Source of the DNA: Ascidiella aspersa
Taxonomy: Eukaryota
Direction of reading: 5' to 3'
Length of the DNA: 64,000 bases
Assembly: GCA_963924565.1 (NCBI GenBank)
Contig: OZ004607.1
Coordinates: forward strand, 23,126,001 to 23,190,000
Shown: positions 15,662 to 43,058 of the stretch, piece after piece
Numbering within the stretch: position 1 is the first letter of the stretch
Layout of the letters: every line of letters begins with the position of its first letter
Position numbers and translations under genes: made by a program
The notes under the pieces: model-generated
Seen by the model: only the letters and a program-made list of their open reading frames with translations
Databases searched by the model: none
Told to the model about the DNA's origin: nothing

Positions 15662-16513
15662 TTAGTCCTCTGCTACGGCATCCTTTTGCTTTCTTGAGGG
15701 TTTCTTTTTCAGGTTAGTTTTGTGCACAAATGCACCGAAGTCGCGTTCAAGGTTGCCAAAAGATGGACGCGGCGACAAACTTGCTGAAAAAACAGCATCC
15801 TGGCAACTGCAGTCATTTAAACTGCCTAAATCGAAAACATCGTCCTCAATGCAGTCACCGTCGTGTTGATAGATCGTTGATGTTCTTGGTACCAAATCAA
15901 AGTAGACTTTTCCGGCGTTTTTCTGATGCGAATCAGTGCCTTTTCCACTATTAGCCTGACTAGTCGCTGTTTTAACTTTGTTACAGGTTTGAAAGGATGA
16001 TTCATCGCATTCTGGTTCTTGATAACGCGATATGAGCGGTTTGGAATGTTTTTTGATACTATTGTTCCACCAGATTAGCTTAGTATTGTCATCCCCATAC
16101 CGCAAGGGTGCAGCCTTTTTTCGGAAAACCTGATAAGAATTAGTAGAACATTGAGCTTTAAAGTCGCCTCGGTCGAAAACGTGTCTATTCAGCTGGGAAA
16201 CTGACAATGCTGACGGTTGATATTTTTCCCTGGCGAGTACATTTTCACCAGTGGTACTTGGTTCCCGTTGAAGAGCGCTGGACTGGGTTAAAAGGTCCGT
16301 AGATAAACTGTTACTTTCCAACAAAAGTTCAGAATCTATTTTCTTTGGTTTTACTGTTGTAGGTTTAACGTTTGATGGTTTTCTGGACTTTTTGCATTTC
16401 AGAAAACATTTTAAAAAGCTTACACAGAATCCACTACGGACTGTTTCCGAACTGTCGTCCTTGTTCATAGGTAATGTTTTTGCCTTTTCACCTTTTAAAA
16501 ACCTGTGAGACAT
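15662..16513 (-). CDS. Uncharacterised 283-aa S/K-rich protein, single coding exon, no recognisable domain
   Basis: 852-bp ATG-to-TAA ORF, far longer than the background ORFs in this AT-rich sequence. Low-complexity, probably disordered composition. Confidence 0.65.
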   Translation of the reverse strand: MSHRFLKGEKAKTLPMNKDDSSETVRSGFCVSFLKCFLKCKKSRKPSNVKPTTVKPKKIDSELLLESNSLSTDLLTQSSALQREPSTTGENVLAREKYQPSALSVSQLNRHVFDRGDFKAQCSTNSYQVFRKKAAPLRYGDDNTKLIWWNNSIKKHSKPLISRYQEPECDESSFQTCNKVKTATSQANSGKGTDSHQKNAGKVYFDLVPRTSTIYQHDGDCIEDDVFDLGSLNDCSCQDAVFSASLSPRPSFGNLERDFGAFVHKTNLKKKPSRKQKDAVAED

Positions 16514-19500
16514 CAGCGTGCTTGTTAGTACTTTAGTTTTTTCAACTAGCTAGAATAATTATTATATATATAGATATTATTTTGTTCTAGAATAAGTACT
16601 AAACAAAATAGACGAAACCTATGCTGGTAAGGTATGGTCAACGTATCAAAAACATTTGTTTGCAGCCTACATTGGACATAGCTTTAACATGTCCCATTAC
16701 AGCTCTATACGTAAATGAATCCTTTCTCGTATATGAAAATGGCCTTGGGTCAGAGCAGCATGCAATTGAGACAAATCGGTTGCACTACAACAGATGTAAT
16801 ATAATTTACGGTTATAGCGTCATTATAAACGTTCTTTGTTACCCATGCTGGTACTGGTGGTTCTTTGTGACAAAAACCTAAAAAATACCGACATGACGGA
16901 CAACACAACAAAAAAGCCAATACAATTTTTTTTTTCCTAACAAAATTTTTAAATACATGCGTTCATTTGAAAAAAAGGGGTATGTAGCAACAGCCTAATT
17001 TAATAAAACAAGATGGAAGATCATACAAAAATTCACCGGACATTCTGAACACAAATCATGTTTATCGTGTTATACCTCCATCAGCAGCTTAAATATATCT
17101 CTCTTGGTCTACAAGCCACTCAAGCCACGCATGAAGTTACTTCTTAAAAAATCTACTCACTATCCGTCACTAAAGAGCAGTTATGAGCAAATTAATGTTC
17201 GTTTTGGAGGGTAAAACTTTAGCCCATCTGCTATGACTATAGTTTCAATTTTATGCCAATCTGCACAAACACCCACACAAAACCGACGTGTATAATATGG
17301 CCTTCCATAAATAAGAATGGTTTACTAATGACATGGTAATTCTAATTGAGACACAAAAAGTAAATTTGGACCATGGTATGGGCAATCTATAACCAGCGGG
17401 TCGGATTTTCCAAACTAGGCATTTCGGTTGCAAAGCTTTACAACCAAAGTGCGCTCGCATATCATGGAACTCTCAACTCAGTAATAAAGGTTTTTGCCAA
17501 CCTAGTCTACATAAATGTACTTTCTCGCGCTTTACGTGAAAATACTTGAAGGATTTATGATATAACACCGAGAGTATATCGACCCTAATCCAATTACAAA
17601 TAAAAACAATTAAATTTATATACATTTTTGCGCTTAGCGCGAACGCCTTTATTTTGTTTTCTACAACGTTAACTATACTTTTTTAATTACATATAATGCT
17701 GGATAAGATACTGCTTAAAAACATACTTTTTACCAAGAAAATTATCAGTAATTCTGGTTTTGCCCTTCAACTGTTGTAACGCAAATTCGTTTGTCTTCCG
17801 GCTATCTGCGAAATGCGTTTGGAAACTTTATTATGCAAATCTTAGTTTAATTGTTGTTCGTTAGTTGATACATTTAAAATTAAAAAAATGATGAACAGCG
17901 TAGATCTGTGCATACGGAACAACAGACTCTGGCGTTATCCTGTTGTAACAGAGATAAATGTGTAATATAAACATTTCCGGGGGTGATGCTTTATCTATTT
18001 TTTAAAAATTTAATTTAATTATGCCGTTATGTTTTCGATAACACATTTATGAAGACATAAAACATACTGTGCTGTGAATAGCGACAAAACAAATCTGTAA
18101 AACGGGGTTTTCGCGTGTAGCGCGAAAAATGTTTGCCGCAGTTACATTTTTAAAGTTGCAAAAAAAAGTTTTCTTGAGAGCCATGTCATGGTTTCCAACC
18201 CCTGTGCACAACTTAGATTTCCCGTATACTTAGAAATACACCTCATTGTTCTGACCAAACATAGCTGTAATCGATCGTAAAAGTTTAAAGGCGCCTATAA
18301 ACACCACAATTCATCTCCCCGCGGTTTTAAATGTTATTTCATTCAGGCAGGTTTAGGTCTTATTCCGAAGAATTTAGGTGTTGTTCCGTCGTAAATATTA
18401 GTGCGTACTTGGATGGTTGCTCTCTGCCGCTCCACGGGTTTGTGACATTTTTTTACTTATTGACCATACTTGGACATTTTGTAATAAGTCAGAAATTAAT
18501 CGCCTTAAATATGTGTGTTGTAAACTTTGCATTGTAAAATAGACCAAGTGGAAAAAGCTGTGTGATGCTATAACGTGCAAATAAAATTTAATGAAAACAA
18601 ACTACGACAATGTTGATGTTGCAGAGTCTAAATACAAGCTATGTATTAAGTGTGTATTTTTCGTTACATAACTTCTAGCAAGATAAAACATTTTTCAAAA
18701 AATTTTCCCGAAACATATTTAGTCCAACCAGAAACACAATCATGTGGGCAACAGAAGAACCCGCTTCACGGTGTTATATTGGGTTGGTTTGTTGTTTTCT
18801 TTTGGGTTTTGTTGCTATTCTTGCGTTTAAAATCTTTATATTTAGTGCGTCTCGGAAGGCGTTTCGCAACATAAACATGGGCATATACGGGTGGGTGGAA
18901 AACAGCATTATACGCAGCCGGGAAGATAACTGCATCGTATGGTTTGTAAACGCCATTGCTGTTTTACCGGTTAATTTATCATTTCGTGGATATGTAAACT
19001 TATAGTTAAGGGTATAGCAAAGGCCATATAGCACTTGTTTCTATTCTTTTCTTTAGTCATGATTATCAAACAGTGCGTTGTAGTCTGTGAATTTATTTGG
19101 GCCAAGACTCTCAGTAATCACAATTGTAAAAATGTTACAGTTCTGCTAAATTTCGCTAACAAAATCATCTTCAAGAATTACACACATTTTCACGCATGTA
19201 CAAAATGCTAAATCGGGTGAAAGTGCGGTTAAGCGTAATTCACGAGTTTAGTGCATTCCAGATTAAGTGTTGTAACACCACTTAGCAAAAATAACTAATA
19301 TGCTAGGCACAGATATATTGCCGTGACAGCCCCCGCATATATATCGGTGCCAAATATGTTGCTTCGCTTGTTGACGTCACAAACGCAACAAATGGCGTCA
19401 CGTGGTAACTTCCTCCACTTGAATGACGACGGATCTGCCGCACTAAAGAACGTGTGAGCGCCACTTGTGTCTGCTCCAAAATTGTTCCGAGCCGCAGTGA

Positions 19501-22181
19501 TTGACAAAACCAGCAGCATTATGTATAGAGAATATAGCTTGTAAACTTCAATTAAAGATTTAAATTGCCTGTTACAGTTCTTTACCATGATTGGCATACA
19601 CACTGCAATTGGTTGAGCAATATGTTGCCTAAATTGTAGTGCGAGAAAGTAGGCACTGACGATGCTTTGCAATCAATTGAATTTGTTGCAATAGACTGCT
19701 TGATAATCAGTAGGTCGAGTGATGTCAGAAAAGTCTGAATTTATATGACGGTTTTTGGTTTTATTGTTCAGCTGTATATAATGTTGTGAGCTTCGTTAAA
19801 GGCTGTTCATGACACACCATGTGACCCATAAAATAAACAAATAGAACACCAAGTTAAAAATTCAACGGAAACTCGTCAGCGGTGATCGACAGAAAGTTTA
19901 GTGGTTGACAGGGCTGAATCCGGTAGGGGTACCAGGCAATTGTTCTCTCGATAACCGTTTAGCGCATCTTCATTCGTTTTTTGTATGATATAGTCCATTT
20001 TAAGAAAATATATATTTTCTATTACAAACAAGATATAATTACACCGCTTACTGAAATAATTTCTCTCAAATATTAAAGAAATAATAAATGTTTATGTGAC
20101 GACAATCTTAAACAGTGTACACTTACGCTGTCGAATAACTGCAATTTCTATCATATTAACCCAGTTAGGTCAATTTTGCCGTTTAAGTGAGACGATAACG
20201 TCTTTGAAATATTGGCTTGTGCCGTGCATATAATATTTATTTAGATAGGACATTTTTGTGACCCTAATAATTAGTTCAGTGTTGAGCAATACCGCAACAC
20301 AGACAGACTCTGCGTCTGCTTATCCACACGCGGATCCCAGTAATCTCAACCAACTGGTCATCTGGTAGTCGCAGTAACAACTTACATGCCGGTTGTTTTA
20401 ACAATGGCACAAAGGGGAAAGCCAATTAGGCTGAGACGCTTCCGCCTGCTTTCATTATAGGACTTAAGTCACGGAGCCGGACGGCCTTGCCACACATAGG
20501 GCGGCAAGTTGTGAAATAGGCTGGCCATTTGCTTGCGTCTTCCACGCTGGTGATCCTTTGTTATTCGCCAGCAAAGTATTCTTATCCTGATCACACTGCC
20601 GTCGCTGCGTTTCTAAGCGATTACACGCTCTGCTAATTGCATACAGCATCGCAAGTTCTTTCGCGCATTACTAACGTGGAGTTTTTCTTGGATCATATTG
20701 AAAAGAGTCTTGCGTTTAAAGAACTCAAAAGTGTTTTAACTACAGTCAGTCGATAAGTCATCGCCGTTAAAAAAGCAATGCATTTACGGCAAGCGTTTAT
20801 TGAAACTTTAAAGTTTAATTGCAAAGTGCGATTCACAGGAGTTAGTTTTCATGGCGTTTTGGGCATCTTATTGTTTTTAAGTTACTTAAAAGGATGTTGA
20901 ATGTACAATAATTTCACCAAAATAATCTATTGGTTCAAATTTTAGCTTGTTACGATATTTAGTAAATGATACAGAGAAATCAGATAATATCAAACTTTTA
21001 AATGAACGCTAGATTTGTTTTTAGAAGATTAGAAAATAATTCTATTTTCCTAAATTTTCTCGATTACCCATCGTTAAATTAATTATTGTCAACGACGTGC
21101 GTGACTAAAGGATCTATCTAGTAAACAGGTGTAGGCGTGTTGAAGTGGGAGCCAAAATTTAAGTCCAAAAATGACCAAACCTGGGAGAAATGTTTGTTTG
21201 TGTAAATCGGCTTCATTCCTTGTCCGGTTTGGCTGCTGGTGTGTTTTGATCGACTTTAATTTGTCGTGGCAAGACGAGGCAAAAACGAATCACGTTCGGC
21301 GAAGAAATCAGCTCATTTACCAAGGTTAACACTAAGTTGTAGGCGAGGAATTTTTATCCCAAAGTTACATGTCGCAAAGATGGGCAGGGCAGCCCTTCTG
21401 AAAAACGCCGCCGCGTAAAAATGAATGTTAGTACGAAGTTTCCTACGCTGTTTTTTTTTGGTGAGCTCACGTTTTAAGATGCGAGGCAGAAGAAAAGTTT
21501 TGATCACTGGCGTACTCTGATGTGCCCGCTGAAGTTTTAAAATATATTTAAGCTGGTTATATTTTAATTAGGTTTATGTAGATATTGTTGCAACATTGTT
21601 CATGTTCTTGTTAAGCGCTAAAACTGTCAAAACAAGAAGGGAAATATCCACGATCCTACAGGTCAGTGTTGCAGTTTGTATAAATAAATATGATGGCCTT
21701 ACTGTAGGCTGCTATTATAATCGAAACAATGCAACAAAGATAAATCGATCGTCAATTTTACAGGAGCAACGTCGATACATTCATCGCACTCAGAAGGCCA
21801 TTGTCATCTAAACATGCTTAAACATTTGGTAAGTGGTTACCTAAGTGTCTAAACCGCCTAATTAGTCGTTGAATTGTGAAGTTCTGTTGCGTGTTCTCTT
21901 CGAATTCAACACATGGTCCATGGCGTTGTGTTTTTTTTAATTTGTTGCACTTGCAACGCAGTAAATATCCATGGGCACAATTGCGAAACACACTAAAGGT
22001 ACTACGGGGTTTTTGTTGGAACATGTTAAAGACTTTGAAGGTTTTTAAAAGAGTGGTGTGTGACGAACGATTAATAAGCTTCTGAGGAAACACAGGAACG
22101 TTAAAATACTTTTGAATTACGCCAATGCATCGTTCGTGATCTTGGTCTAAGTTACTCTAAGAAGTTCTATTAAAAAACTTG

Positions 22182-24913: not shown

Positions 24914-27900
24914 GTTGATGTACGGATCAGCTGTTTACTTCGATAGACGAGCTCAGTCGGGCTGTTTTAGGTGTGTGTGGCAGTTGGGCGTTGTGCCTTG
25001 TTAAGAAAGTAAGAGCAGTCATAAACAAGTGGGCATTTTAGAGTATAATTCGCAAATGTTTGACATTCAAGCCCAGGGCCAGCAATTGTAGCCTAAAATG
25101 ATATCTATTTTATTTTTCCCACACTTATAGTCTACGTCAATTCTTTAGTTTAAAAATGTAGAAAAAGTAATAATATTTTTTTTGCCGTACGGTTTTGCTG
25201 ATTAAAAGCCTTAAAACCAAAACCTATTTCATGTAGCAGGCCGTGTGTTTTTTCAGTACGTTGTACCCAGCAATGATGACATTTGTCCAAGTGCCCTTAA
25301 GGCCGTTATCCTTTCTACTTGAGTTCTATGTTATTTGTTTAAACAGTTTATTAGGTTCGTTTTTGTACTGCTCAATGCTCAAACCCTCGCTGTTTGCTTG
25401 TTGTAAAAGAGCGTAAGTAAATAGAATCGCAATGAGACGCATCCTTTTCATATAAATACACACCTGAATAACAAACATAGCCTATATTGTTGTAAAAACT
25501 GAATTTCAATAATGATATTTTTAGTAAAATTTGCATGTTTATATTAAAATCAATTCGTTTAGGTAGATGCGTCATCAAAATATATTTATCTCATTTGTTT
25601 GTTCTATATAAATAAACATTGCTTCCTTTTCACTTTTAAATGAGATACCAACAATAAAATTGCCTGTATTTCATGTGATTTCAGTGTTGCTATTTTAATT
25701 GCACGAAAAGGTTCCGTTTGTATATTAGGATGATAAAAACTCAAATGCGCTATTTGTTATAGTATACTATACGTTGTACAACAGTTCACGCCAAATCGGT
25801 CCCACGAACGAGGTAGCTTAAGTACGCCGATTTAGATCTGAAAATTGCGAGGTATCATATACCTGACTATATAATTTCGATGTTTTTGACTCGAGTCATC
25901 CATTGCGACGGTGCTTTGCTCAACATTCTCGCGAGCTTTTTAAGTGTGGAATATTTCTCTGAACAACACGACTGTCAAAATGATTCTCAACTCGTTACGC
26001 ACGTCACGCTTGCATGGTTTAATTTTCGAAAGATTAGTTAATTTGAATGTCCTTTAGTGTTTCGTAAATACTGGCGGTATAAATGTGATTAAAAGTTATT
26101 GAGAGCCCGGAGCCCGGTGTTGTAAGACACGTCACTTAACGTCGATAAAAAATATTCTTGATACATTTTCGTAAAAATCTACGTGTAATGTGTGCACTTT
26201 GTTTAGAGAACGTCGCATGATTGTTACTTCTATAAAATTACGGCCATGTTGTACCGCCTGCAGGCCATGCCACTTTGTATAGGCATACTAAAGATAATAA
26301 AATAATACAGTTGCTGTGGATGTATGTGTAAGGATGTCATATATTGTAGGACGTTGGCTGCATAAATTTGTCTTTTATACGTTTTGGACATTTTTACACA
26401 TGCGATATTGGAAAAACAATTACGTTTTCTTGTTTGCATTTTTTGTAAAGGCAGTTACGAAACATAAAATGTACCTGTTAAAAAGCGAGCAGCGCTGTTG
26501 TCCGCCATACACGTGTTTGGAAATTCGTAGACATGCGCTTGTTTCCCGTTTAGTTAAAATATGCGCGACTCTAGTTGGTTGCTTGTAATTAAGCCCGCCG
26601 AGACTCGCTATCTGGTTTACAAGCTGTTGTTAGGAAGTGCGGTGCTCGAGATCTGCTCCCCGAAGACACGTCTGTTCGTCGTACATTTGCAAACTGTTAG
26701 CGGAAACGTGTAGAAAGTTAGTTGCACGGGTTCAGCAAACAACAACAGGTGGTTTTACCCTATGCTTCGATACTATTACGACGTATTGAAGTTCAATTGC
26801 CGATCCACTTACCTGTCCCAATCATATGGTTCGCCCGTAGGGTTCGAAATCTTTAGCGTCAATGGCCCAACGGAGTGCAATAGCCCATAAAGGGAACCTG
26901 TAAGCGAAGAATCGCCAGAATCAGCATGAGACAGTGAAAGAGTCTGCATGCCGAGTTTAGGTGGAGCCAAGTCGAAGTCGAAACTGTAATGCTACCCAAC
27001 GCGACCTGTAATTTAGATCACTTGTAACTGTCGGAGACTTCACGGCTGACGCCGCCTTCAATGATTGAGTTGTGATTAAAGTTCGGGGCTTTGCTTAAAA
27101 GTATAGGCCGCAGTTTATGTGTGGAATGGCATTGTGCTATAAATATATTGCTTTTTCAACAAGGAATATTTCGAATATATTTGCTATGCAGTTTTCCTAA
27201 TAGGACTTCAAGCAATAACTAAGAGTGTATATGGTAATATATCTCAATTTGTATTATGTCTAAATTTAAACTTAAGGTTATATTTGCTCCGAACAGAATG
27301 TGAATCAGTAAGTTAAAATGTTATTTTAATGCGTGTTCCTATTTGTTATTAAATTGTACGCCTTTATAATTTAGAGTTTAAGACATACTAAAAATAAGGT
27401 TATAAATTAGTAGGCAACCGGGAACAATTGCTGGACTTTTTCACTTAAATCTAAAGTTAACTTTCTAATTTGCATATTTAGTTCTTAGTATATTTTTCAA
27501 TGTTCACGTTGGTAAGGCTGAATATGTCAAGATACTGGAATATGTCTTTTTTTTTTTGTTCCTAAAAAAAATTAAACATTTAAGCCATAAATTATTGGGT
27601 TAAAAAACGAATTTAGGTAAGATTTAGATTTCGGTATTTTCTACTATACTTTAGTTTGAAATGAATTTGTAAGAATGGGGTGTACCTCGGAAATTACTTA
27701 TTTATATATTATCATGGAAAGGCTGGTGAGGCGGCAAGCAGTGGTTTAATCACACGTTGCTGAAAAATATAAACAGCGGCCAAACCGCAGATATAAGCCT
27801 GATTATGCCCAACGAAGATGTCAAAATCTTTTCTTTTTTTAAATTGGATCTCTATCAAACAATGGGTTAACGTTTAATGCTGTTGAGACTTGAACACAAC

Positions 27901-28671
27901 GCACATACCAACCTGTTTTAGAAATTGCGCAAATTTTACAAAGACAGCAATGTTTTTTTTCCTTTAAAAAACTAAACGCCCTTCTGATCGAACAACTTAT
28001 CGACCGTTCACCGGTACTATTGTTTACATTCGTCAGATCAGCGAAAGGCGACACGTCGCATATCAGTCGCAAAGGAAAAGTATAATTACCCGAGGCCGGA
28101 TCAATGTCGAATGTTAATCCGGTTATTACTAGTTGCCTGCCGTTTAACGACATTGAGACAGGGGCTAAATAAATGATTGCTGCGTGGGATTTTAATAGTG
28201 GCAATTACACAAACCACCGCGAATTATACAATTTTTTTGCGGATACGTGTTTATTATTGCGAGCCCGGCCATGGCCTAGTACAGACGTTGGAGTGTTTAT
28301 GACGTTGGCTACTTCTCTACAGGTTAAACAAATTCAAGTGGGCGTGTGGGCAACCGCTAATCGAACTAAAAAAAATTGAATTTGTTCTGAAACACGCATA
28401 AAAGTTACAGTTCCGGCTTTGTATGTTTCTCTTAAGGCTGGAATTGTGGGTTAGAAAGAAATTCATATAATGACAGTAAAAACTGCTAGCTTTCAGAAAT
28501 TGGATAATTTTTTAAAATTAGGGTGGCGCTTTAAGGCAATTTTGTTATAACAATGGTCTGATTGCAGGACGAATGATGCACGTGGCGCGAATCTGTTATT
28601 CGTTTACACATTTATGTTGAAAAGACGCTCAGCTGTAAGTACAGAAAGTTATTATTTCTCTTTTGTTACAG

Positions 28672-31600
28672 CATTCAGCACATAGGCGATCGCTTAGTTT
28701 TTTGAGTGACAGCAGTATCTCGTCGTCTAGCATCGCTTTGCCAAGTGATCCGACCCTTACCAACTACACACCGACATTAGAAGCACCCAAGAAGCAGCAT
28801 ACACGTAAGTTGAAATCAGGGACGTAAGTTACAGCAAAAATACTTGGTGTCAGACATTTTGACTTTATGCGCTTATTAGTATACCACAAGCTTAATGTGT
28901 TTTTTATTTGTTATTTAAACGATAAAATATTCATCTATGTACAAATACAGTTCGCAATTCAAGGTACTAAGCTTAACAAAAACCTTGCGCCGTTCACAGG
29001 GAAGTACAGCACGCGTTCGGTAAAGCATCGCAAAGCTGCGCATTTGGAAGGTGGAGTTTCCCAGAAAGTCAAGCAAAGAAACGCTTCGGGTCGCGTGAAG
29101 GCTAACAGTGTGTACAGCGAGTCTCCAAGTACGAATGAATATCAAAGGAAACAGCCAGCCGAGGTCACCAGCTACGACCATAGTAAACTAAATATTTCAA
29201 GGATGCGAAAATTCATGCATCATCACAGTCAGAAACCGGTCAGCTTGTGGTCAACCGAAGATGCCTGCGATTGGTTGAAGTCGACTCAGTTGGACGACGA
29301 CAACCAGTTATCAGAACAGTTTCGCAAATCTAGAGTCTGTGGAAGACACCTGGCGGATGCCGAAACCGCCTGGAATTGTCTCAACAGACTCAGCTTTCAA
29401 AACAGTCGACAAAGGCAAGACGTGGTCTTGAAGTTGGCCGAATATTTGCGAGAGTCGAAAACGGCCAACACACACCAGTCATCAAACAATCAGTTTGATT
29501 CAGACACCAAACATCCCAAATCAAGGCTCAGGCTCAGACCCCCGTCCTCCATAGGTTACCAAGATGCAACTGCGACTTCGTCAGACTACGTCAGCGGAAC
29601 TTCCTCATCGTCTTCCATTACAAATTCCACAGCTATTCCCGAAAATGAGCAAGGCAGCACATATGGTGACTTGTCCGCATCTTCTGTCAGTACATCATCC
29701 AGTAGAGTAAAGAAGACGTTAAGTACAATACGCCAAGCAATTTCAAAATCAAAAGCTTTGCCAATATCGCCAACAGAAACAGGCCTTCTTCATGACATAG
29801 TCATCCATTCCAATATCACATCACCAGGTACGAAATGTGCTTTATCATCTGTTTGATATACTGAATAATTTTACAGGGCCTAACCGTAACTTTAAATTTA
29901 GATTGTTTCGCTGCCACTCAACTAAAGATTACTGACACCACAACTACAAGTGAGCTTGTTCAACTTTTTGTGGATAGCTCTTCCATAAACGAAGATATTA
30001 ACTTGTTCGTAATAAACGACGTGTCCGTCCCCGATCCCGACGTAAAAGGTTGGTAAAAAAAAACAAACCAGTTTTTTAGTTTGATGCTGTTATTTCTGGT
30101 GAAGGCATTTTGTTGTTTATTTTTTTATAATTTTGTTAAGAAACGATAAATTCCAGGTTACCTTAAATCTCATTGTGAATTCATGTTTTAAATGTTTCAT
30201 GTGTAAACTTGCAGTCGAGAAGAAACACCGCAATAGAGGAGTGATGTCATCACGTCGAATGCTGGAGCCTGACGAATGTCCATTGGCTGTTTATAAATCA
30301 ATAACTACGTCGACAAGACGTAATGTCACTAGGAGACTGGAGCTCATACAAATGAAGGGTGTTATTATAAAGGTACGTCTATTTTTGCCTAATAACACCA
30401 AACGCGCGTTAGATAGGTTAAAAAAGCATGATAAAATTTGGTTGTAAATGAAACATATTAGGAAATATCAATAAGCTCGTATACGTCAATAGCTATTATT
30501 CTGACATTGACCGCGGTAACGTTTAATTGGTTTCCTGTTGGCGGTCGATTTGATATCGATCCGACGAAAACAAGTGCTGTCGTCGTTTAAGGTTTAAAGG
30601 CGAATTAGTTTAATTTCGTTGCCCACCCGACCGATTTCTGCCCATCGTTGGAAGCGTGCGTAGCCTGGGGGCTAGTGGCATTCGAAGTGGCTCGCTCGCG
30701 ACTGGACAGTCACGCGACAATGTTTGTCCACGCCTCGCACTCATGCCGTTGAACGATCTTAATCTCCGCCCAATAAAATAATTTATGTTTTACGGCGAAA
30801 ATCTAAGGTCACTCCGTTTTGACGAACGAATCGCTTTCTGAACAGGCAAAACCATCAGCTGCAGCTAAAAAGAAAGTATACTTTTAACAGACTTTCTTTT
30901 TTATATAAACTGTTGCTACCAGGCATGGTAATATAAATCAAAAACAGCTCCTCTGGTAATTGTAATTGTAATTGTTAACCAACATTTCGGCAACCTATAC
31001 AAGCCGCCTTCGTCAGGGTGAATGACACTGAACGCTCGTACAATAAATGGAAAGCAAAAAAAGGAAAAAAGCAGAAATAAACGCGAGCAACGAAACAATA
31101 AGAAAATAATTAGCGACTGCCTCTAGTTTATTTTTTATGTTATTAGGGTCGGCCTTAGGTTGGAGACACGATTTGTTAGTTGAAATCTCACCATACAGGG
31201 TTTTATATTATGCTCTTCGCATTTTCTAGGTGATTTGTCGCATTGGGAAGCACCGTCCACGCGGGAAGCAATTTCGCATTTCTACCCAATCATCTGTCGA
31301 TCACGTGATTCGATTGGCACTGCGCAAATTCCGTCTGCGCAATGTTGATTCGAGCTTGTTCGCCCTGTGCGACATATCCGTGTCAGGAGGTAAATAGCCA
31401 GGCGAATATCGTGCTGTTTGTCCTTGCCTATGATAGAAACTTAAGTGTATCAGTTTATCGTAATTTATTTTAAATGCCAGTAAACAATTCTGTCAGCTTA
31501 GTTTTTAAACTTTATCAATAAATATATAAATTAATACAAATATATGACAGATTTTTCCGAGTTTTCTGAATCGAGGTTGCCGCAGTGGAAAAATGGAGCA

Positions 31601-34600
31601 TCACTTTTGATGTGCGACAGGGCTACTCTCAAGCAGCTAAATTCTCAGTCCGGTATGGCCATCTTGCTTGGAAAATCGTTGTCCTTCTTTCACCATGTTA
31701 GATTATGCAACTTTTTTAGATCACGAAAATTTTTGTTTATTTGTTGTAGTAATTTTTTTATTGTCTTCTGTGTAATATTGTTTTCTTTTGCCTCAATTCT
31801 GCCTTTCTAAGAAGGGCAAACAAAAATATTCAATTCAAAACCGTGGTTAACTTTACGCCACTAATGCAAAGTGCCAACCAACCGATTTGAACCATGTTAT
31901 TTGATTTTCAGGTGCCGCCACAAACCAGATCCCTGATTTTAGACGATCTTGTTCGATGACGTCCAACCTGTCTGCGGTATGTTTTTTGTGACGTCATAGC
32001 ACGACTGGTTTAATCCGCAAATTACGAACCTAAAATGTAACATTGGTTTCCTTATTAGCTAATTCGAAACCTATTCAAAGAGTATGTTTTATTTGAAAAA
32101 CAATTAAATTGCATGTAAAGTAATTGTGTAAGTGCACTTGAGTTTTATCATTCAAAGGGTTATTTTTGTTGGTAGAGTTTTTTTAAAACGTGATAACTGG
32201 AGCGACCATGTCTGTCACTTTAAGTAGGGAATTTTTGACGTACACTTTGTGTTATTTTTCAGTAAAAATGCGGCAGTTTAAAACCCATTTCGTGCTGGGA
32301 ATTGTGTGTTGACTTTAACGGTTATGTGGAAAGAAACCACCGAAAATATGGAAATTCCCCCCAGTTAAAATGTAATATCTAATCGCGTTGGTGAATCAGA
32401 TCACTAAAAATATAGGTCGTGTGGAGCGTTGGAGCGATTTTATCTGTAATTTTGGGCAATTTTGTTTCACTAGTTTAGAGTTGTAGGCTACATTAAAGTT
32501 TAGTTAGTCCTTTTCCAGAAGATTAATATAGTATTTTATAGCGTCTACTGTAATAACTTGATTAATGATAAAGGCAATAATTTGTCAACGTTGTGATAAC
32601 ATTTTGTAAAACAGTGAAGTAATAAAATTCTAATTTTGACTAAAATGTAGTCTATTTTCGACAACAATTTTATAGTTTAAAAATACTTTTTCGAATTTGT
32701 TATACACATCTTTGTAACGCATTGTGGCATGAAGCGCTGCAGTAGTGCCCAGAATAGGCGCTGTCAGGCTCTGTTGTTTATTATGTTTGGTGTTTTGCTG
32801 ACAAGGGTATATACAAACTCTTAAAAATGTATTATGTAAATCTTAGTTTTTTTGATATATGTTGACATTTTTGCTTGAAAAATGTAGGCAAATTACTAGA
32901 AAAATGTTTTTTTTAAAAACGAACCAGTCGATGGAAATAACCCATAAAATTGCTCAATATACAATAGGGTAATGGACAACACAGATATCTACCATATTTT
33001 AAAATATGAAATGAGCTAATTGCAAACTACTAACAAAAAAGAAAAACTCTTCAATACATCTGTCTGAATTAGAGATCTGAAACAAAAAGCACTTTCTGAA
33101 ACAAAAGCCAACTATCAGCTTCAAACTTAGGACCGCGGAGTTTATTCTGTTAGGAAAATACAGTTAAAACTTGACGGATGTAATCCCAAATCAAATGGTA
33201 ATGAAATTTTAAACTCAACGACAATTTCATGAAGCTCACTATAGGTTTTCGTAATATTTCTTTCGTTTGACATATCATACCGTACTATTTTGAAACTCAT
33301 ATATATCCCTCGTTTAACAATAATAAAGGTAATTATAACAGTTTATGTCTGACACATGATTGTTAATCTTTTCAGTTTTCAGCACTTTATGAACAAATTT
33401 GGTTGCCCCTGGGATAAACTATAAACTAGTTAGCAACCATAACAACATATATGCGCTAAGAGAATTTTGTAAACAATTTTTAATTTTGCCAAAACTAACG
33501 CCCTATATGTAGATGACTCAACATCTACTACGACACATAACAAATTTCTATTAAAGTCGTTTCTTAAAGGCCCAATCTGAACATGTTCATATTCATTGCA
33601 CTATCTGAAGACAGTTTAATGCGAATTAAACTTATTTCGCAATTTAAATCGTATCTAGATTTTATAGAACAAATTGCTGAGGTATATTCCATTAAAGACC
33701 CCTCAAGTTACAAATAGACAGATAATTACAATGAGCAAAATATTTATTATAATAAATGCATGTTCAGGAGAGTCGTGGTTCGTCCGGATCCGACTCATGG
33801 ACTCCGTACAAACTCGACCAAACCGGTCGACTCACCGATGAGTTAATGGAGCAAGAACGCGAGTACCTTACACGGGTCCAAAACTCCATTAGTGATGACG
33901 TCATTGTTGACGACGTTTCCCCCCTTACAAACGATGACATCGGCAAGTCTGCTGAACTAACGCATTTCCACCAGCGAAGTGGGAGCTGCAACGCATCCGG
34001 AGCAGTCTCCATCGTGCGTAACTTTTTCTATTTTTTTTTTAAATTAAATTCTCTTTTTGTGTTTAGTTAAAATGGTGCGTCAAATTATTTTTGTTACGTA
34101 TAGTTTTAGGGTTTTTTTTGGTTTTTTATTATGTTTTCTAAAACTATGACGTAAAGTATTGTTTTTCAATCTTAGTCTTATGTTTTAAATTACCTCGGAT
34201 GTACACGGCAACGAGATTTTATTTTTCTCTATAGCAAGTTAGTTTTATAAAGAGCAACATCATGAGCTTTTTATACAACAAAAAAGTGATCTAATATTTT
34301 TTATAAAGGAGAAATTAACCGTTAAAAATGCAGGAACATCAAAAAGCAGAGGCCCTAACAGTCGACAACGCAGTTTTGCGATCCCAGCTACGCGAAAAAG
34401 TCGACCAGTTTGACGATATTCACCGCAAGGTGACGCAAGTGAGGAACATGCTGGAATCAGGTTTGCAGCGATATCACGATTCCGTCAATCAACAATCGGA
34501 AAACGCTAATGGAGGCTCACTTGCGCTTGAAGAGGAAATTAAGTTAGTCATATAATGTAAATTACCCCAACATTTGTTTTAGAAGAAATTTAATAAAACT

Positions 34601-36138
34601 AAAAACACTAATTAAGCTAACAAAATGAAGGTAACAACAAAGAAAAATCTCAGAAAACTATTTCTTTACTTTAGGTGCCGCTTAGTTGACCTTTGGACTT
34701 ATCTAGCTATAGTTCTACACCAAATCTGAAATCTGGCATATGTTTTATTACTAGGTCGACAGAAAAAATGATTAGTAGCACAGAAGACATGCTCGGTCAG
34801 CTATTCCGTCATCAGCGTCAACTATTGTCCAAACAAAAGGTTGAAAACTCGTCGCAAAGTGACAGTGACGAGCAAATAAATTATTCTGCGGGAAACTTGG
34901 ATTTGGAGGGAGTGGATAGCGCTTCTCTTGCTGATGTTGACTTGCAAATAGCTGTCCACCAGGCCGATTTGCTATCATTAAAGCACAAACACCAACTTCT
35001 AGATACGAAAGTATGACGAACTTAGAAACTACACATTCACCACGCAATCAACAATATAGTAAATGTCAACAACAAATATGAAATACACGAGGGTCAAATT
35101 TACGTTTTTTTGGTTGCAGATGTCCCTCTTTGTTGCCCAGCGGAAAGCTGAAAAATTTCGTCACATGATCCATAGCAGTCTGTACGACATAGTCTCTTCC
35201 AACAGCGGTGTCACTACTGTCCAATCCAATCAACCGCAAACCCAAATAAGGCCAGGTCAAGCTATAGTGGGATACACGATTCACTGTTGTGAAGTGTTCT
35301 CCAGTAATGCTGGATATGGCCTTGCACTCAAGGACGAACTTGAGACAACTCGCACCAGCGCAATGGTTCGCGGCACTATCATGGACTGTGAGCATCGACA
35401 AGGCGCCTTGCGCAAAGGTAAGTGTATGTTCACTAAAATCAGAAACTTATCAAACTCTCCTGTATTTGTGGCTGGACACATTGCAAATATATAACTATTA
35501 TTATTAAATGATATTTTTAAAGCAGTATTTTTTTATTTTAATGCACCTTTAATTACCTGTATAAAAATTGGTTCATCAACGCTTACATATTACTTTGCGA
35601 TTTTTCCCTTGTTTATATGCTTTGCCGTAAGTATGGTTATTTTTACAACGTAGGTGACCGACTACTCGAGATCAACGGCATAAACGTGCAATCAGTAGGA
35701 GCTGAACACGTTGCAAGGATCCTTAAAGGTACAACGACCGCTCGTATCGTCGTAATGCGGAAGCGGGACTCGACGGAATGCAACAGATGCCTACTGGATC
35801 TTCCAGCGAACAAATCGCAGCCTGCCAGCCCGAGCACGCGCTCCGAGGACACCGATGACGATGACGTCATCATGAAAGAGTTCGACGCCACGTCAAAGCC
35901 GGTCGTTGCCGGAAGTGAGGAGATGGCCGATTGGAGGGAAATGTCCGCGCTCAAGAGCGACCTGTCGATGCTCATGCGCGAACTTGAGCTGACGTCACGG
36001 GCCAAACGCGAACTTGAGCGTGATGTGGCGCGCAAACGCAACCGCGATGTGCTTCTGGAGAGCGAGAATGCTAGGTTAAGAGAGCAAATCATCCGTTTAC
36101 AGAAAGCTGTACGCACTGGGGAATCCGACTCTGCCTAA
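28672..36138 (+). CDS. Uncharacterised multidomain scaffold: SAM, two Ras-association (RA)-like domains, coiled coil, PDZ, coiled coil (~1030 aa; start codon unresolved)
   Basis: Phase-consistent GT-AG exons: 28672-28804, 29000-29827, 29902-30048, 30215-30372, 31230-31389, 31551-31652, 31912-31976, 33768-34013, 34334-34542, 34755-35010, 35120-35417, 35654-36138 (3087 nt, ends TAA). SAM: PVSLWSTEDACDWLKSTQL..LSEQFRKSRVCGRHL. RA1: LKITDTTTTSELVQLFV...RRMLEPDECPLAV. RA2: IIKVIC..KQFRISTQSSVDHVIRLALRKFRL..SSLFALCDI. PDZ: GYGLAL...GALRKGDRLLEINGINVQSVGAEHVARILKG..ARIVVMR. Confidence 0.88.
30950..31090 (-). mobile_element. Probable 3'-terminal fragment of a Penelope-like or non-autonomous retroelement
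   Basis: On the minus strand a T-rich leader precedes the hammerhead motif, followed by an (ACAATT)3 tandem tail. It sits in an intron, antisense to the host gene. Boundaries are approximate. Confidence 0.5.
30978..31019 (-). ncRNA. Minimal type I hammerhead ribozyme motif (Penelope/retrozyme type)
   Basis: Minus strand reads ACC-CUGACGA-A-GGCGGCUU-GUAU-AGGUUGCC-GAAA-UG-UU-GGU. It has the intact core CUGANGA/GAAA/UH, an 8-bp helix II, a short helix I, and helix III reduced to an A-UG-U loop. Confidence 0.7.
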
Positions 36139-37797
36139 AACTTGTTCCATGTTTATCATTTATAAATTTCATTTATTTATTAACCCTCTCTGGTGCATTA
36201 GCGTTTTGCGCAATTTGTAAAGCCCTTAAATTACAATCGTTTGTAAAGGATTTATTTGTTATCATCCCTTGTCCTGATAACATAGCCGTGCTTCGTTTAG
36301 CGTATTTTTGTTTTATTATTAATTGGTTTCGCCATTTGTTATTCTGGCTCGCCACTATATCTCATATAAATTTGACGGATGTCTTTTACATTTTAATATT
36401 TATAAGCATTTGAAATGTTTGTAGGATGCAACACTCAGACTTTGTTTTTTGCTGTTTGTTTTCAACCTATTAAGCCGAATATATTGATTTAAAGCGCATA
36501 TTTTGCGGTTGTGTTAAACAAAGCGTATTTCTTACGTCAATAACGTTAAGCAAACCATTTTATTTTAGTTAAATTAGCAAAAATTACTCCTAATTGCAAT
36601 GAAGATGTGGCTGAACAAAGGATGGAACAAGTGAATAGTTTAGGCCTACACCATTCTAAAAATACTTTGCAGGGTGTGTTTATTTTTTAAAATCTATTTC
36701 GTATTCAGCAACTTGAAGACAGACTTTGCTTTGTGATTTAAAACAGCAGTACATGTAGAATTAATAACTTTACAGCAACTTCGAATAGCTCTTACTAGGA
36801 CTGCAGGCCTACAAGAAATTCAAACAAAAAAACACTAAACAAAAATCTTGGTTAGTATAATAGCACAGCAGCATATGTAATTATACATTTAAAATCAACA
36901 GGATAATTAATTAATAGATTTTGTTAATGTTTTAAAGCACAGCAAAGTGCAAATTTATTCCCATTTAAGAAAATAAGATATATTACTGCTAGACATATGT
37001 GATAGTGTACACGGCGCCTTTGGAGTAAAAAAAAAAGGTACAAAAATGTTGATTTATTTAGCAAATTGGCAAGACATTAGTTAAAAGGAATAGCCTGATG
37101 TAATTGTTTCTAACAACACTGTACATTGAGTATAGTAAGTATTCCATTTTCAGGTCAGGGGAACTAAATACTAGAAATGAAAATCAAGACTCGTATCATT
37201 TTTTTGGGAGAGTCCTGCGCGCGTCCCTTTGCAACTCCTTGGTCCCCCTAGCGGCGCGCACCCAGCTTAAGAATCTCTGCTTTATATCAATAATAATTGC
37301 ACCGCTGGACATCTTTGTTGCATAGTGATTTCTTTGATATATTTAATTACTCTCCAAAGTCTATGTGTAACATTCAGATAATCCGATTATGTTGTTACTA
37401 TATTGAAAGTTGAATGAATGTGTAAACTTTAATGTTTGCTTAGCTGGCGGTTTAAATAAAAATACACGGGCTTTTTTTTTCAATGGCGTATCAATAAAGG
37501 CTGCGCCGTAATGGCTGCAGGGTGATTTTGGCGACAATATCCCAATATTTTCAGACCAGCCGATCGAAGTTTGGGGAGCCATCGGGTAAAAAGGAATACA
37601 AAAAACTTGATAATATATTTTTGATAAATCCAACCAGTATAGGTAAAATAATATCTGAAGCATCCTAAAATACAGCACAAGAATAGCCTGTGATACATAG
37701 AACAACTCGTTTTTTTTGGCTGCAATTCTACTGACGTAAATTAAGAGATTTCAATGGTTTAAATCTTTTTGACTGACGTTATTAAAAATTAACCATA

Positions 37798-37854
37798 TGA
37801 CTTGTATACAATAACATTCGCTGTTATTGTGACTTGTATACAATAAAATTCGCT
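37798..37854. repeat. Tandem duplication, period 32 bp
   Basis: tgacttgtatacaataa(c/a)attcgct at 37798 and 37830. Confidence 0.85.
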
Positions 37855-38324
37855 TAATCGATTGTTAGATTTTTATCTGCGTACAAACGAATTCTAAATG
37901 TTTTGCATTTTACGAAAATAATGTGTTAAATGTAAAACAAAATCGGTAGCGTCAGAGATCTCGTAAAAAAACCTATTGGATCGTCAATTAACTATTTGTT
38001 TTTCAATACCCTTTTTGGCGCTTCTTCTTCGTTCCAACTATTATTGCCATGTTTAGATTACATAAAAATAAATTCAAAACATATAATCGCTAAGCTTTCT
38101 GATTTTTAAAAAGTGAGTAAATTTACCACGGAAAACAATAATGCCCTGGTCAAAACGGATATTAGAACAACTACAATGTAGAGTTGTAGACTATTTAAAT
38201 AATAAGGAAATAAATTCAATTATAAAACCGGCAGGCGCCGGCGTAAAAGTGCCATAACATCGCACTACAATGTTTGCCAGCTTGAGAAAGAGAAGATTTT
38301 GTCTGGAGACACTGGACATTTTGG

Positions 38325-41300
38325 CTATGCTTTCTTGTTTTGAGCAGAAACCGGTGAAACGCGGACAATAATTCGCGTGTGGGTGAAATATTTGGTGACG
38401 CTCTTGATTTCTGCTTTCACAGAGTTTAAACCGTCTTTGGGCTGCCTTTTCCACCACGAATCTAGCAGCTTGTAACGCTCGGGATTCTTTGGATTATTTA
38501 CGTCAGACCTGTGCGGGATCATCTTGAACCTAAATAAAGGTACAGGACAAACTTTTACGAAAGATTGCTATACATAAACAATCTAAATTTAAATAGCGCC
38601 GGAATGGCACGACTATAGCCGCACACGGTGAGGTAAGGCGGTAGGTAATCTTGCAAAACCAAGGTTTTGTAACCCCTGATTCCATTTTAACAACACTATG
38701 GCGTATTAAGTGGGTTACGACAACAGGTTAGGTTAATTTATTTGCCCGAAACAAGTACTTCATCGGTACATCTAAAAATGGTGGAAAAATAGCATAAGTC
38801 TGCGTTAAGAAACAATCTACATGAAAGGACATCAAAAACTGCTAAACTTATAACATCTAAACGTGAAGGCAAAACAATTAAGTGTTTCTACAGCCATGTA
38901 AATCTCTATAACCTTAAAATTGCTACTTTTAGTGAATAGCCCATATATATTCGTGGTGCGGTACACGTATTTCCCTATTGAATATTTTGACTATATCGTA
39001 TTATAAACGCTTGTCCAGTTTTCAGTCTTATGCCAATTATCACCATATATCTATATAATGCTTTACAGATATAACAACCTGGAGTATTGCTTCTTATTTC
39101 TGTGGACTTTAAACTTTCCAACTTTCTCAATCCGAGCGTACATGTCATCATCCTCGCCACCCCAACCCTGGTTGTTTAAAAAGTTTTTTACAAATTAACG
39201 AATCAACTTAGATTAGACATTTGTCTAGTCTTGTCGCAGAAAGCATTATTATTAACAAAGCAAATGATTTGGCAAATGTGTTAGTACAACTGATTATTCT
39301 ATTTCTAGCACATCTATTTTATTCATAAATACAGGTCATTGTTTCGAACCTCTGAGATTAGATTTTGTCAAAAATATATTACTTACATAATATTGGTTGG
39401 AAAAGCCGTTGACTTTAGTAAATTGCTTTACAGTAAAACCCACAGCGCCACCAACGGTGATTCCACAGCAAAGCCTGTAATTGAACTTGTCGATTTTGCT
39501 TGCAATGTGAGCCACTTGTGTCTCATCTTAATAATAATGCAGAGATTATTAAACCCTATCAAATTGCTCAACTTGTCCCACTTTAATATAGCAAAAGTCT
39601 TAGAGGAGCTAACGGTATCAACACGATCCATAGACAATCGAAAAATGTGCCATGGGCAATGAGATTCCCGTATAATACAAGATAAACGTTGGAAACTTTT
39701 GCGTGATTGTCACCAGAGAGGTCATAAAAAAAACATGTCGAAGACTTTACGAAATCACCATACTTATGCTTTACATACCCTTTGCTAATCAGTATTTAAA
39801 GATAGCTTATATTATTGAAAAAATAAACCTTTAGGGGTAAATATACCCATTTGTTAAGAACAGTTAACGTATGTATAGTACTCATCAAAAGTTAAAACAA
39901 ATCATTATTTGCGTTTAATAGCCATAGTATTTAGTGGGTAAGGATATAAAGTTGGAGTCAAAAGGCATGTAAACGTATATGCTTAATATTTGTTATGTTG
40001 CTTATCAACCCGGGGGCTAATCCTGAACAGCCAAGAAAATTTCAGTTAAGTAACCTTAAGCTGGTGTTTTCAGAGCACTCTTGTGTCAATGTATAACTGA
40101 AATCGACTCGTTTGAAACTTACGTTTTTAACGTTTTATGTATAAAGGTAAGATTAACGCAAAAAAAGTTCCTGGAACTAGATTAGTTATGCTTAATGCGC
40201 CACGTCTCCTTCTAAATTAGAGTTTTGTCAACTTATATCACATAAACGCAGTCATTTTCCTATGCTTTGCACAATCGCATAGATTTAAACATTTCAGTTC
40301 GACATTTACGGTCGACTGGGAAATATAAAGTTTCTTAAGGTTACTTTTTTCAAGTCACGTTATGACGTAGATATATGACGCAATTTCTGAAAATGTTCAT
40401 GCTTTCCCTTTATACAGAAACAAAAATTCAACCTAATGTTAGGACTATACCCAAGTATTCGAAATTGTATCAATTAAAACGAGCAAAGCAATGCTTGTCA
40501 GCTGTTAGCTAAACGTAGGCCTAAGTGTTTACTTTAATATTTAATTACTTGTTTTGGAAACATGAACCATTAAATCAATATGCACAAATCTAAAATGCAA
40601 ACCTTACCTTGTTATGTGTTTAGCAATGTGATCCTATACCCAGAACCTAATGAGTACCAGTATAAGCTTCGATTCGATATTATTACAAATTTCTATGATG
40701 GTAGAGATATGTAGATTATTCCATTTATGGTCCTAAAAGTGTGAAAGGATATTATAATTTAGGCTTTGGTCTAATTTACAAGGCCCAGATTTTTTCACAT
40801 ATTTGTCAGATTATTCAACGGAAAAAGCATCACAGGGAAAATAGTGTCATTTTAATTCAGTGTTGCAGGTTACATTAACATTCTGAAATAGAGCCTATAG
40901 GTTTCCATCGTTGTTACCGGCGAACGCGTGCCAAGAACCGCAGGGCGACAAGTTGTATCACTACAACGCTCCATACTTCGCGACCGACGCTGATCTGATT
41001 TTATTTTCAGCTGGTAAGCGTTCCATTAACAACGTCCCATAAAGCCTAGACTTGTCGATAAATGCCGTTATCACCTTTACAACTGTACAATGTTCGGTCA
41101 TCCTCGCTGATAGTGTCGACATCGTGAAAAATAATACAATCAATTCGATCCATCTTGGTCAAGTTCCTGGCGTACAAAAAGCCGATGTTCATGAGCTGTC
41201 CTTTGTTGAATGGTGCAAACATATCTTGCTCGACAACGATAATCGTGTAACTCAATTGCTGTCTTTGCAGTATGGTATGCATGTAGTGAAGAAAGAACCT

Positions 41301-42617
41301 AGATTGTTGAACTTTTAGAAAATCGCCATAAACGTTTAGGGTAAGGATAGCTGGATTTCCAAAAATATAATTAAGGTAATCATACGATACTATAAGGTGG
41401 TATTGGTAGCGATTCAATTCCAAACTAAAATGGGAATTTTAGCTATGAGTACCTGTAAGTAGTTAAAATTTGAAATATGGGGTAGGCTAAGCAAATAAAA
41501 CTTTCCGACTCCAAACATGGTTGTTACGAAACGACACACACGCATCACACACCTAAAATATATTTTCGTTATAATGATATTCGTCTTTAGTATGCCGTAT
41601 TACATAATCTGAAGCAACATACGGTATATTCGAAATAGTTTTAACTTACCTAAGATGAACCTGTCTGTCTCGAAAGGGTACTACAACAACAACCGATTGC
41701 TTGGCAATGCAATTCATAGGTCCCGGGAAAACACCTCCGATGCCAACCGAGGGGTTATTGATTGCAATTTCCTCTAAAGTTGGAGGCCAGTTGTTTTTAT
41801 TGGATTTATCTGAAAATTATGTAACATGCAAGCTGTCCATCTAAACTTGTATACATTTTGTAGACAAAGTTACATAATTAGTTAAAAATCTTCAGTATAA
41901 ATTTGTTACGGCAAATCAATGTAAGTACTCAAACGAAAGTTGAAAACATGTCCGGCCTGTTCGTTGAGATATATTCTGATATGCATGAAAAACCATTATT
42001 TGTCGAAAACTAATCAAAAAACAATAATATTTTTTGATTTATATCAGAAATAATCAAAACGATATTAATAACTAAACCTAGAAATTAAATGTTAGACAAC
42101 AGAACGTATTTCGTTTCCAACAGAATAGGACTGAAAAATTGTAAATAAATAAAAACGATCGGTTGTTGCCAAATTTTGTCGTTCGTGGCCCCTTACACGG
42201 ACCCTAGAGGTGTCTTTGCTGCTGTCTTACTCAAGCCTGAGTCCGACTTCAGCGAGATACATAGACTCTGTCAAGTCCCGTGTCCCGACCACTTTAAAAT
42301 AATAGTTTGAAACAGTTTTCTTTTTCCCAAAAAGAGTCCTCATTGGCAAAAATAGACTCACCTTCAAATGACACATTTAGATTTCCCTTGAGGAGCGGTG
42401 AAACAGAAGGACATTTCTGTATAGCTTCAGTGTTGGTTTGCATCGTTGTTACCGGCGAACGCGTGCCAAGAACCGCAGGGCGACACGTTGTATCACAGCA
42501 ACGCTCCATACTTCGCGCCCGACGCTGATCTGACTTTATTTTCAGCTGGTAAGCATTCCACAAGCAAAGGTAGAACAATAACACCGACGCGGAGACCAAT
42601 GCAACTTTTCTTTTCAT
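38325..42617 (-). CDS. GT7-family glycosyltransferase (beta-1,4-galactosyl-/N-acetylgalactosaminyltransferase-like), type II membrane protein, 357 aa
   Basis: Six phase-consistent exons: 42362-42617, 41650-41809, 41075-41298, 39387-39526, 39079-39167, 38325-38529 (1074 nt). N-terminal KRK plus TM helix. Motifs: VVPFRDRQVHL, LQRQQL, FNKGQLMNIGF, FHDVD (DxD), IDKFNYRL, VGG, VNGFSNQYYGWGGEDDDM, KMIPH, DGLNS. Confidence 0.93.
40900..41025 (-). repeat. 126-bp direct copy of part of GT7 exon 1 (42435-42560) inside intron 3
   Basis: Ungapped alignment, 119/126 identical, same orientation. Confidence 0.95.
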
Positions 42618-43058
42618 TTTACAAATAAATTACTTAAAGTACTGACAAACAACAAATTTTATAATTGCGCAACCATTTAAAATACAATGTAGCACTGGCA
42701 GCACTTCGCATGTTTGAACGGTTGTAAAATATCAACTAGAAAAACGTTTACAAAAGTAGCAAAATAATGATCATACTTTATTTCGCGAGTGGTTGTCAAA
42801 ATTGTAATATAGGTGTTATTGTAGTTGAGCGTTTCTCCTATAGTGGTATCACATTATGTTCATCCATATCTAACTTTGCTCTAACGCGATTATCAAATCG
42901 TTCAGAATGGCCTAAACCAAAAGTTTTTTTAAACTATTTTTTGCCACACTTTGTTTCGCTGATATTTACTAATCTTTTCGCACTTTTACTTATTTGTTTG
43001 TTTCCAAAAATCACAATTAATAGCTGCAGTTTTCTCGAAACAATAAGTTCGAATAGGG

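What the first reader, a model, noticed from the sequence alone, without database searches (positions are those of the whole stretch)
28672..36138. Uncharacterised SAM-RA-RA-coiled coil-PDZ-coiled coil scaffold
This is the strongest protein-level novelty. The 12-exon, ~1030-aa model is frame-consistent but appears only as fragments in the ORF track. I do not recognise the domain order in a named protein. Afadin is RA-RA-FHA-DIL-PDZ, RADIL is RA-FHA-DIL-PDZ, CNK is SAM-CRIC-PDZ-PH, neurabin is PDZ-CC-SAM and fungal Ste50 is SAM-RA. The PDZ carboxylate loop is a GYGL variant. Inference: an oligomerising Ras/Rap effector linking small GTPases to membrane-protein C-termini, possibly lost in vertebrates. 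The RA calls come from motif recognition and are less certain than SAM and PDZ.
Basis: partly seen in the sequence, partly recalled or inferred. Interest (0 to 1): 0.7.

Follow-up and report, generated by a model that had tools for sequence, protein, structure and literature searches.

The report
Unnamed invertebrate tandem-RA PDZ scaffold gene
This is a real 13-exon sea-squirt gene for an unstudied scaffold protein that likely binds an active Ras/Rap switch, and it is a shortened member of an unnamed invertebrate family whose longer forms also carry a predicted Rab11-binding tail.

Summary
The gene is real. The 12 exons splice into one open frame, and a missed start exon (21814-21828, MLKHL) lies 6.8 kb upstream: 13 exons, 1033 aa. 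It is the ortholog of Ciona/Phallusia 'uncharacterized LOC100187130' (64% to Phallusia). SAM-RA-RA-coiled coil-PDZ-coiled coil holds: the ortholog's RA pair folds as two ubiquitin-like domains (pLDDT 87.5) matching RA structures. New here: collinear orthologs in amphioxus, hemichordate, echinoderms and a brachiopod are SAM-SAM-RA-RA-CC-PDZ-CC, and 11 of 12 non-tunicate species end in a Rab11-FIP-like tail (YLD motif, then EEFC). Ascidians lack the first SAM and that tail. RA2 keeps the beta2 lysine that marks Ras binders (16 of 16 rows); RA1 does not (0 of 16). The PDZ binding loop drifts, so a link to membrane-protein tails is uncertain. No vertebrate member and no paper was found, on limited searches. 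No binding was tested. Verdict: a new arrangement of known domains in an unnamed family; moderate interest.

The parts
21764..21828 (+).
   Evidence: matches Phallusia N-terminus; no RNA read covers it
28672..28804 (+). Exon 2, disordered N-terminus
   Evidence: one RNA read pair
29000..29827 (+). Exon 3: SAM domain (29227-29460), Ser-rich linker, conserved helix before RA1 (29710-29751), first strand of RA1
29902..30048 (+). Exon 4: RA1 beta2, alpha1, beta3
30215..30372 (+). Exon 5: end of RA1, start of RA2
31230..31389 (+). Exon 6: RA2 core with invariant GK (beta2 lysine) and basic alpha1 end
   Evidence: Pfam RA 25.2 bits
31551..31652 (+). Exon 7: end of RA2
31912..31976 (+). Exon 8: linker
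33768..34013 (+). Exon 9: acidic linker
34334..34542 (+). Exon 10: coiled-coil region 1, first part
34755..35010 (+). Exon 11: coiled-coil region 1, helical hairpin
35120..35417 (+). Exon 12: end of coiled coil 1 and first half of PDZ (from 35273; GYGL loop)
35654..36138 (+). Exon 13: second half of PDZ (to 35766), coiled coil 2 (35914-36111), stop; no FIP-like tail follows
30902..31127 (.). High-copy interspersed repeat inside intron 5; not part of the protein

Best explanation
The locus is a single-copy, conserved ascidian gene for a 1033-aa SAM-RA-RA-coiled coil-PDZ-coiled coil protein that likely works as a Ras/Rap effector scaffold, predicted to dock on the GTP-loaded switch through RA2. 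Shown: gene structure, orthology, domain order and folds. Inferred: (1) RA2 pairs its beta2 strand with switch I of a Ras-subfamily GTPase, using the invariant lysine and a basic surface; (2) RA1, acidic and without that lysine, is structural or binds something else; (3) binding recruits the protein to the membrane, where coiled coils and SAM assemble it with itself or partners; (4) the PDZ holds a peptide ligand of unknown, probably non-class-I type. The ascidian form is reduced: the longer invertebrate form has a second SAM, a basic N-terminus and a Rab11-FIP-like tail.
For: Open spliced frame and orthologs; single match in the genome for the RA2 exon and for the SAM segment. RA pair of the Phallusia ortholog (74% identical to the window here): two beta-grasp folds, pLDDT 87.5. 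Best structural matches of RA1: PLC-epsilon Z 12.8 (rmsd 2.6, 99 aligned), RASIP1 RA Z 11.7, afadin RA1 Z 11.2, RADIL RA Z 11.1. The family RA profile hits afadin (E 1.3e-6), RADIL and afadin RA1 among solved structures. [quoted passage not shown] That column is K in 16 of 16 RA2 rows and 0 of 16 RA1 rows; net charge over beta1-beta2-alpha1 is +12 (RA2) and -4 (RA1) in the window. RA1 and RA2 are 74-76% identical to Phallusia against 46% for the Ser-rich linker. PDZ fold Z 12.7, rmsd 2.3, 85 aligned. Collinear homology with Ptychodera from SAM to PDZ, probability 99.9, 667 columns.
Against: No binding was measured or modelled. The lysine mapping for RA2 rests on weak alignments to RASSF5 and RASIP1 (E 0.13 and 0.086), and the 16 rows include two near-duplicates. 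RA2's structural matches are mostly generic ubiquitin-like domains (Z up to about 10), and Foldseek returned di-ubiquitin, ISG15 and talin rather than RA domains. An oyster member has no RA domains (P0052), so the family can do without them. PMC11698047 (abstract, section 6) shows that both Canoe RA domains bind Rap1 although earlier work said otherwise, so reading binding from sequence can mislead. The PDZ loop is poorly conserved. Folds are of the Phallusia ortholog, not the window protein.
Confidence: 0.55

Rival explanations
1. The RA pair is a GTPase-independent module: the very basic RA2 binds acidic lipids or another protein, and the whole is a constitutive cortical scaffold.
For: RA2 net charge rises to +9 or +10 in ascidians against -5 to +3 in other animals. 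Structural matches include FERM subdomains of SNX17, SNX27, talin and myosins. The oyster member lacks RA.
Against: The beta2 lysine and the preceding glycine are invariant in all 15 aligned sequences; the closest solved sequences are Ras/Rap effectors.
Confidence: 0.2
2. The family's main job is membrane traffic, as a Rab11-FIP-like adaptor on recycling endosomes; the ascidian copy, without the tail, is a repurposed remnant.
For: The tail profile hits only Rab11-FIP3 in the top 5 solved structures (best E 0.0028); Atlas first hits are RBD-FIP clusters (0.87, 172 features shared; a lead only). YLD is kept in 11 of 12 non-tunicate species; the YID/YMD motif is needed for Rab11 binding (PMC3279423, passages). 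The oyster member keeps SAM, PDZ and tail but not RA.
Against: Pfam RBD-FIP scores are below cut-off (14.7 and 13.3 vs 23.3 bits) and seen in only 2 of 11 proteins scanned. The ascidian gene is well conserved without the tail. This describes the relatives, not the window protein.
Confidence: 0.15
3. It is a diverged ortholog of a characterised gene (afadin/RADIL, neurabin, CNK, or Drosophila Rau, recalled as a two-RA protein).
For: RA1 is closest to afadin and RADIL RA domains; family SAMs hit neurabin, SAMD12/aveugle and CNK2 SAMs.
Against: Each hit is to one domain. No FHA, DIL, PH, CRIC or SARAH family appears in Pfam scans of 13 proteins. All 12 RA-carrying hits among 116 profile hits are family members (8 named, all invertebrate; 4 unnamed fragments). 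The only vertebrate protein I named among the hits is a PDZ-only match to lizard PATJ.
Confidence: 0.07
4. The architecture is an artefact of joining unrelated exons.
For: No RNA joint row was returned; one read pair only.
Against: Independently annotated full-length proteins from three ascidians and several other phyla have the same order.
Confidence: 0.01

Closest known systems
Ciona/Phallusia 'uncharacterized protein LOC100187130' and its unnamed orthologs (e.g. S. purpuratus LOC589102, B. belcheri LOC109464519)
   Same: Same gene: 64% and 44% identity full length; collinear with non-tunicate members; the RA-pair tree groups tunicates and echinoderms as expected for single-copy orthologs.
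   Different: Annotated as gene models only. Non-tunicate forms add SAM1, a basic N-terminus and (11 of 12 species) a FIP-like tail ending EEFC.
Afadin/Canoe, RADIL, RASIP1
   Same: Tandem RA domains plus one PDZ in afadin; RA1 is closest to their RA domains.
   Different: No FHA or DIL; has SAM and coiled coils instead. Both Canoe RA domains bind Rap1 (PMC11698047 abstract), whereas only RA2 here keeps the beta2 lysine.
Phospholipase C epsilon RA1-RA2
   Same: Tandem RA; top structural match of RA1 (Z 12.8). Recalled, not checked: its RA1 is structural and RA2 binds Ras.
   Different: No lipase or GEF domains.
Rab11-FIP3/4 (class II FIPs)
   Same: Coiled coil ending in a Y-[ILM]-D Rab11-binding-like helix in non-tunicate orthologs.
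   Different: No EF hands or C2; the tail continues about 18 residues to EEFC; the window protein lacks the tail.
Neurabin and CNK (architectures recalled)
   Same: SAM, PDZ and helical segments in one scaffold; SAM and PDZ similarity.
   Different: Different order; they have no RA pair; no PH or CRIC family found here.

Membership tests
RA (Ras-association) domain | Ubiquitin-like beta-grasp fold, both segments | tested here: met
   Ortholog model pLDDT 87.5; Pfam RA, 2 stretches, 44.2 bits in Phallusia
Ras-binding RA domain | Lysine in beta2 (AF6 K58, PMC5653649): RA2 | tested here: met
   K in 16 of 16 rows; mapping through weak alignments
Ras-binding RA domain | Lysine in beta2: RA1 | tested here: not met
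   0 of 16 rows at the aligned column; Thr in the window
Ras-binding RA domain | GTP-dependent binding to Ras/Rap | not testable with these tools
   No intron-free Ras or Rap gene among the 35 GTPase loci read, so no complex was modelled
Afadin/Canoe | Two tandem RA domains | tested here: met
Afadin/Canoe | FHA and DIL domains between RA and PDZ (recalled) | tested here: not met
   No such Pfam hit in 13 proteins; the region is predicted as linker and long helices
PDZ domain | PDZ fold | tested here: met
   Z 12.7, rmsd 2.3, 85 aligned; Pfam 23.4 vs 23.2 in Phallusia
PDZ domain | Conserved G-phi-G-phi carboxylate loop | tested here: inconclusive
   GYGL in the window; second Gly in 5 of 9 tunicate-type and 3 of 10 other readable rows, 3 family rows unreadable or not printed
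SAM domain | Five-helix SAM fold | tested here: met
   Five helices at 129-196, pLDDT 78-86; window Pfam below cut-off, orthologous SAMs above
Rab11-FIP | C-terminal RBD with YID/YMD motif, in the window protein | tested here: not met
   Stop follows coiled coil 2; no tail match downstream; the genome's 2 RBD-FIP matches are other genes
Rab11-FIP | C-terminal RBD with YID/YMD motif, in non-tunicate orthologs | tested here: inconclusive
   YLD in 11 of 12 species, E 0.0028 to FIP3, but below the Pfam cut-off; binding untested
CNK | CRIC and PH domains (recalled) | tested here: inconclusive
   No Pfam hit and no room for PH in the model; only a loose helix-plus-PDZ match to CNK2, rmsd 16.8
Drosophila Rau | Sequence orthology of the RA pair | not tested
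   No Rau sequence was returned by any search; paper search gave three listings, not read

The most novel reading that the evidence does not exclude
An old bilaterian scaffold family, lost from vertebrates, joins a Ras/Rap-binding RA domain and a Rab11-binding FIP domain in one chain, wiring Ras-family signalling directly to recycling endosomes; tunicates uncoupled the two by losing the Rab11 tail and one SAM, and oysters by losing the RA pair.
Probability: 0.3. Interest if true: 0.62.

Novelty: new variant of a known kind. Interest (0 to 1): 0.4.

Why it matters
It adds an unnamed family to the short list of animal proteins with tandem RA domains and gives a sharp test: RA2 should bind a Ras-family GTPase and RA1 should not. 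If the tail of the longer forms binds Rab11, one protein would read two small-GTPase families, and lineage-specific domain losses would be a natural dissection. Ciona, amphioxus and sea urchin embryos make this testable. It remains a rearrangement of known domains with no phenotype yet.

Tried and rejected
RNA: no RNA holder listed by the index; run X5, about 6% read, gave no joint rows for the gene. A start at 28614 (MLKRRSA, 37-nt intron) was dropped in favour of 21814. A first splice attempt with wrong boundaries gave 32 stops and was corrected. Two copies of the Phallusia SAM: no verdict, score 0.02, no evidence either way. No RA-GTPase complex could be modelled: Ras/Rap genes read from the genome are split by introns. 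The full-length model (3 sequences) left RA1 at low confidence until the alignment was deepened. The third word-indexed homolog search was crowded (7993 candidates scored, 8 hits, all family), so absence from vertebrates, arthropods, nematodes and cnidarians is weak evidence; the exhaustive search used a 3-sequence ascidian profile, and I named only part of its 116 hits. Rfam: 2 sub-threshold chance matches in 26000-38500. A crude heptad score found coiled coil 1 but not coiled coil 2; the latter rests on the predicted 70-residue helix. Papers: 0 for LOC100187130, 0 for six ortholog IDs, 0; listings show nothing on this family by title and abstract start. Main texts only were searched; supplementary gene lists could hold these IDs. 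No earlier scan finding.

Full report
Observation. The region holds a spliced + strand gene. Twelve exons from 28672 to 36138 join through 11 GT-AG introns into 1028 codons and a stop. That model has no start. A scan upstream gave six ATG-donor candidates; one, at 21814-21828, reads MLKHL with a GTAAGT donor in phase 0 and reproduces the Phallusia N-terminus exactly; the pattern occurs once in the window, 0.02 expected. The protein is 1033 aa in 13 exons. DNA runs of the same species show none of 12 listed indels in exons. One RNA read pair implies splicing of the intron 28805-28999; other joints have no RNA support.

Identity. The last exon found two relatives and the Phallusia protein a third: 'uncharacterized LOC100187130' of Phallusia (64%) and Ciona (44%) and a Clavelina protein (40%). 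The host is therefore an ascidian, and the gene is already annotated, without function. The RA2 exon and the SAM segment each match once in the genome.

Domains. The Phallusia model shows five SAM helices, a PDZ (Z 12.7, rmsd 2.3, 85 aligned) and long helices at 614-782 and 947-1016. With 15 sequences the RA pair folds at pLDDT 87.5 into two beta-grasp domains. RA1 matches PLC-epsilon, RASIP1, afadin and RADIL RA domains at Z 11-13; RA2 matches RalGDS RA and generic ubiquitin-like domains at Z up to about 10.

Family. A profile search over 1.84 billion representatives gave 116 hits; 12 carry part of the RA pair. The named ones are from Ciona, Ptychodera, Branchiostoma, Anneissia, Acanthaster, Strongylocentrotus, Apostichopus and Lingula; Patiria, Asterias and Holothuria were added later. 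Non-tunicate members typically have two SAMs (the Apostichopus model P0030 shows one), and homology with Ptychodera is collinear over 667 columns. The RA-pair tree of 17 rows groups the window with tunicates (100/99) and the echinoderms together (99/97); one unnamed long-branch row is unsure. Two unnamed ORFs share the boundaries of exon 6 (read by eye). Eleven of 12 non-tunicate species end in a YLD helix and then EEFC; the Lingula model does not. A profile of four such tails hits Rab11-FIP3 in its top five solved structures (best E 0.0028), though Pfam RBD-FIP stays below cut-off. PMC3279423 (passages) reports that the YID/YMD motif is needed for Rab11a binding. No ascidian protein tested has the tail, none follows the stop, and the genome's two RBD-FIP matches are other genes. 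An oyster member keeps SAM, PDZ and tail but has no RA.

Mechanism. PMC5653649 (passages) states that RA domains pair beta2 with RAS switch I and that a beta2 lysine (AF6 K58) is a conserved element. By the alignments, that column is lysine in 16 of 16 RA2 rows and 0 of 16 RA1 rows; the beta1-beta2-alpha1 region is +12 in RA2 and -4 in RA1 of the window. I infer that RA2 binds a Ras-subfamily GTPase and RA1 is structural. A conserved helix shortly before RA1 (low confidence) could act like the alphaN helix described for AF6; this is a lead only. Against over-reading: both Canoe RA domains bind Rap1 despite 14% identity (PMC11698047, abstract and section 6). The PDZ keeps its fold, but the loop's second glycine is present in 5 of 9 tunicate-type and 3 of 10 other readable rows, and the first position of helix B is Ala rather than the His of class I domains (consensus recalled). 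Binding to membrane-protein tails is possible, not supported. Oligomerisation is inferred from coiled coils and SAM and is untested.

Comparison. It works most like afadin-type Ras/Rap effector scaffolds but is not an afadin (no FHA or DIL), nor a CNK, neurabin or FIP by the features tested. The only vertebrate protein named among the hits is a PDZ-only match; absence from vertebrates is plausible but rests on limited searches. No paper was found for the gene or six ortholog IDs; PMC5610242 was seen as passages only and adds nothing needed.

Verdict. Real gene, correct architecture, one missed exon; an unnamed invertebrate family with an unusual mix of known domains. Interest 0.4; 0.62 if the longer forms prove to bind both Ras/Rap and Rab11 (probability 0.3).

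Noticed in passing
window 30902-31127: About 226-bp interspersed repeat in intron 5: 1545 first-look candidates in the genome, the 40 scored about 90-96% identical; nearly all RNA reads laid on the gene fall here. No Rfam match.
   Followed up: partly
window 58885-59994 (-): Intron-free 369-aa CDC50 family ORF (Pfam E 6e-90); possibly a retrocopy.
   Followed up: no
window 41046-42629 (-): Exons of a glycosyltransferase family 7 gene (Glyco_transf_7N, E 4e-26).
   Followed up: no
window 55778-56284 (-): GIY-YIG endonuclease ORF; likely a mobile-element remnant (Penelope-like, recalled).
   Followed up: no
window 15662-16549 (-): 295-aa open frame with no Pfam family above cut-off, about 5 kb upstream of exon 1 on the other strand.
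   Followed up: no
P0133 (unnamed, 731 aa): Long-branch family member with RA pair, coiled coil and a degenerate PDZ but no SAM; groups with tunicates.
   Followed up: partly
L002, L003, L006: Three similar, nearly intron-free Rab-type GTPase ORFs, two in tandem on C4; Rab34/36-like by recall.
   Followed up: no
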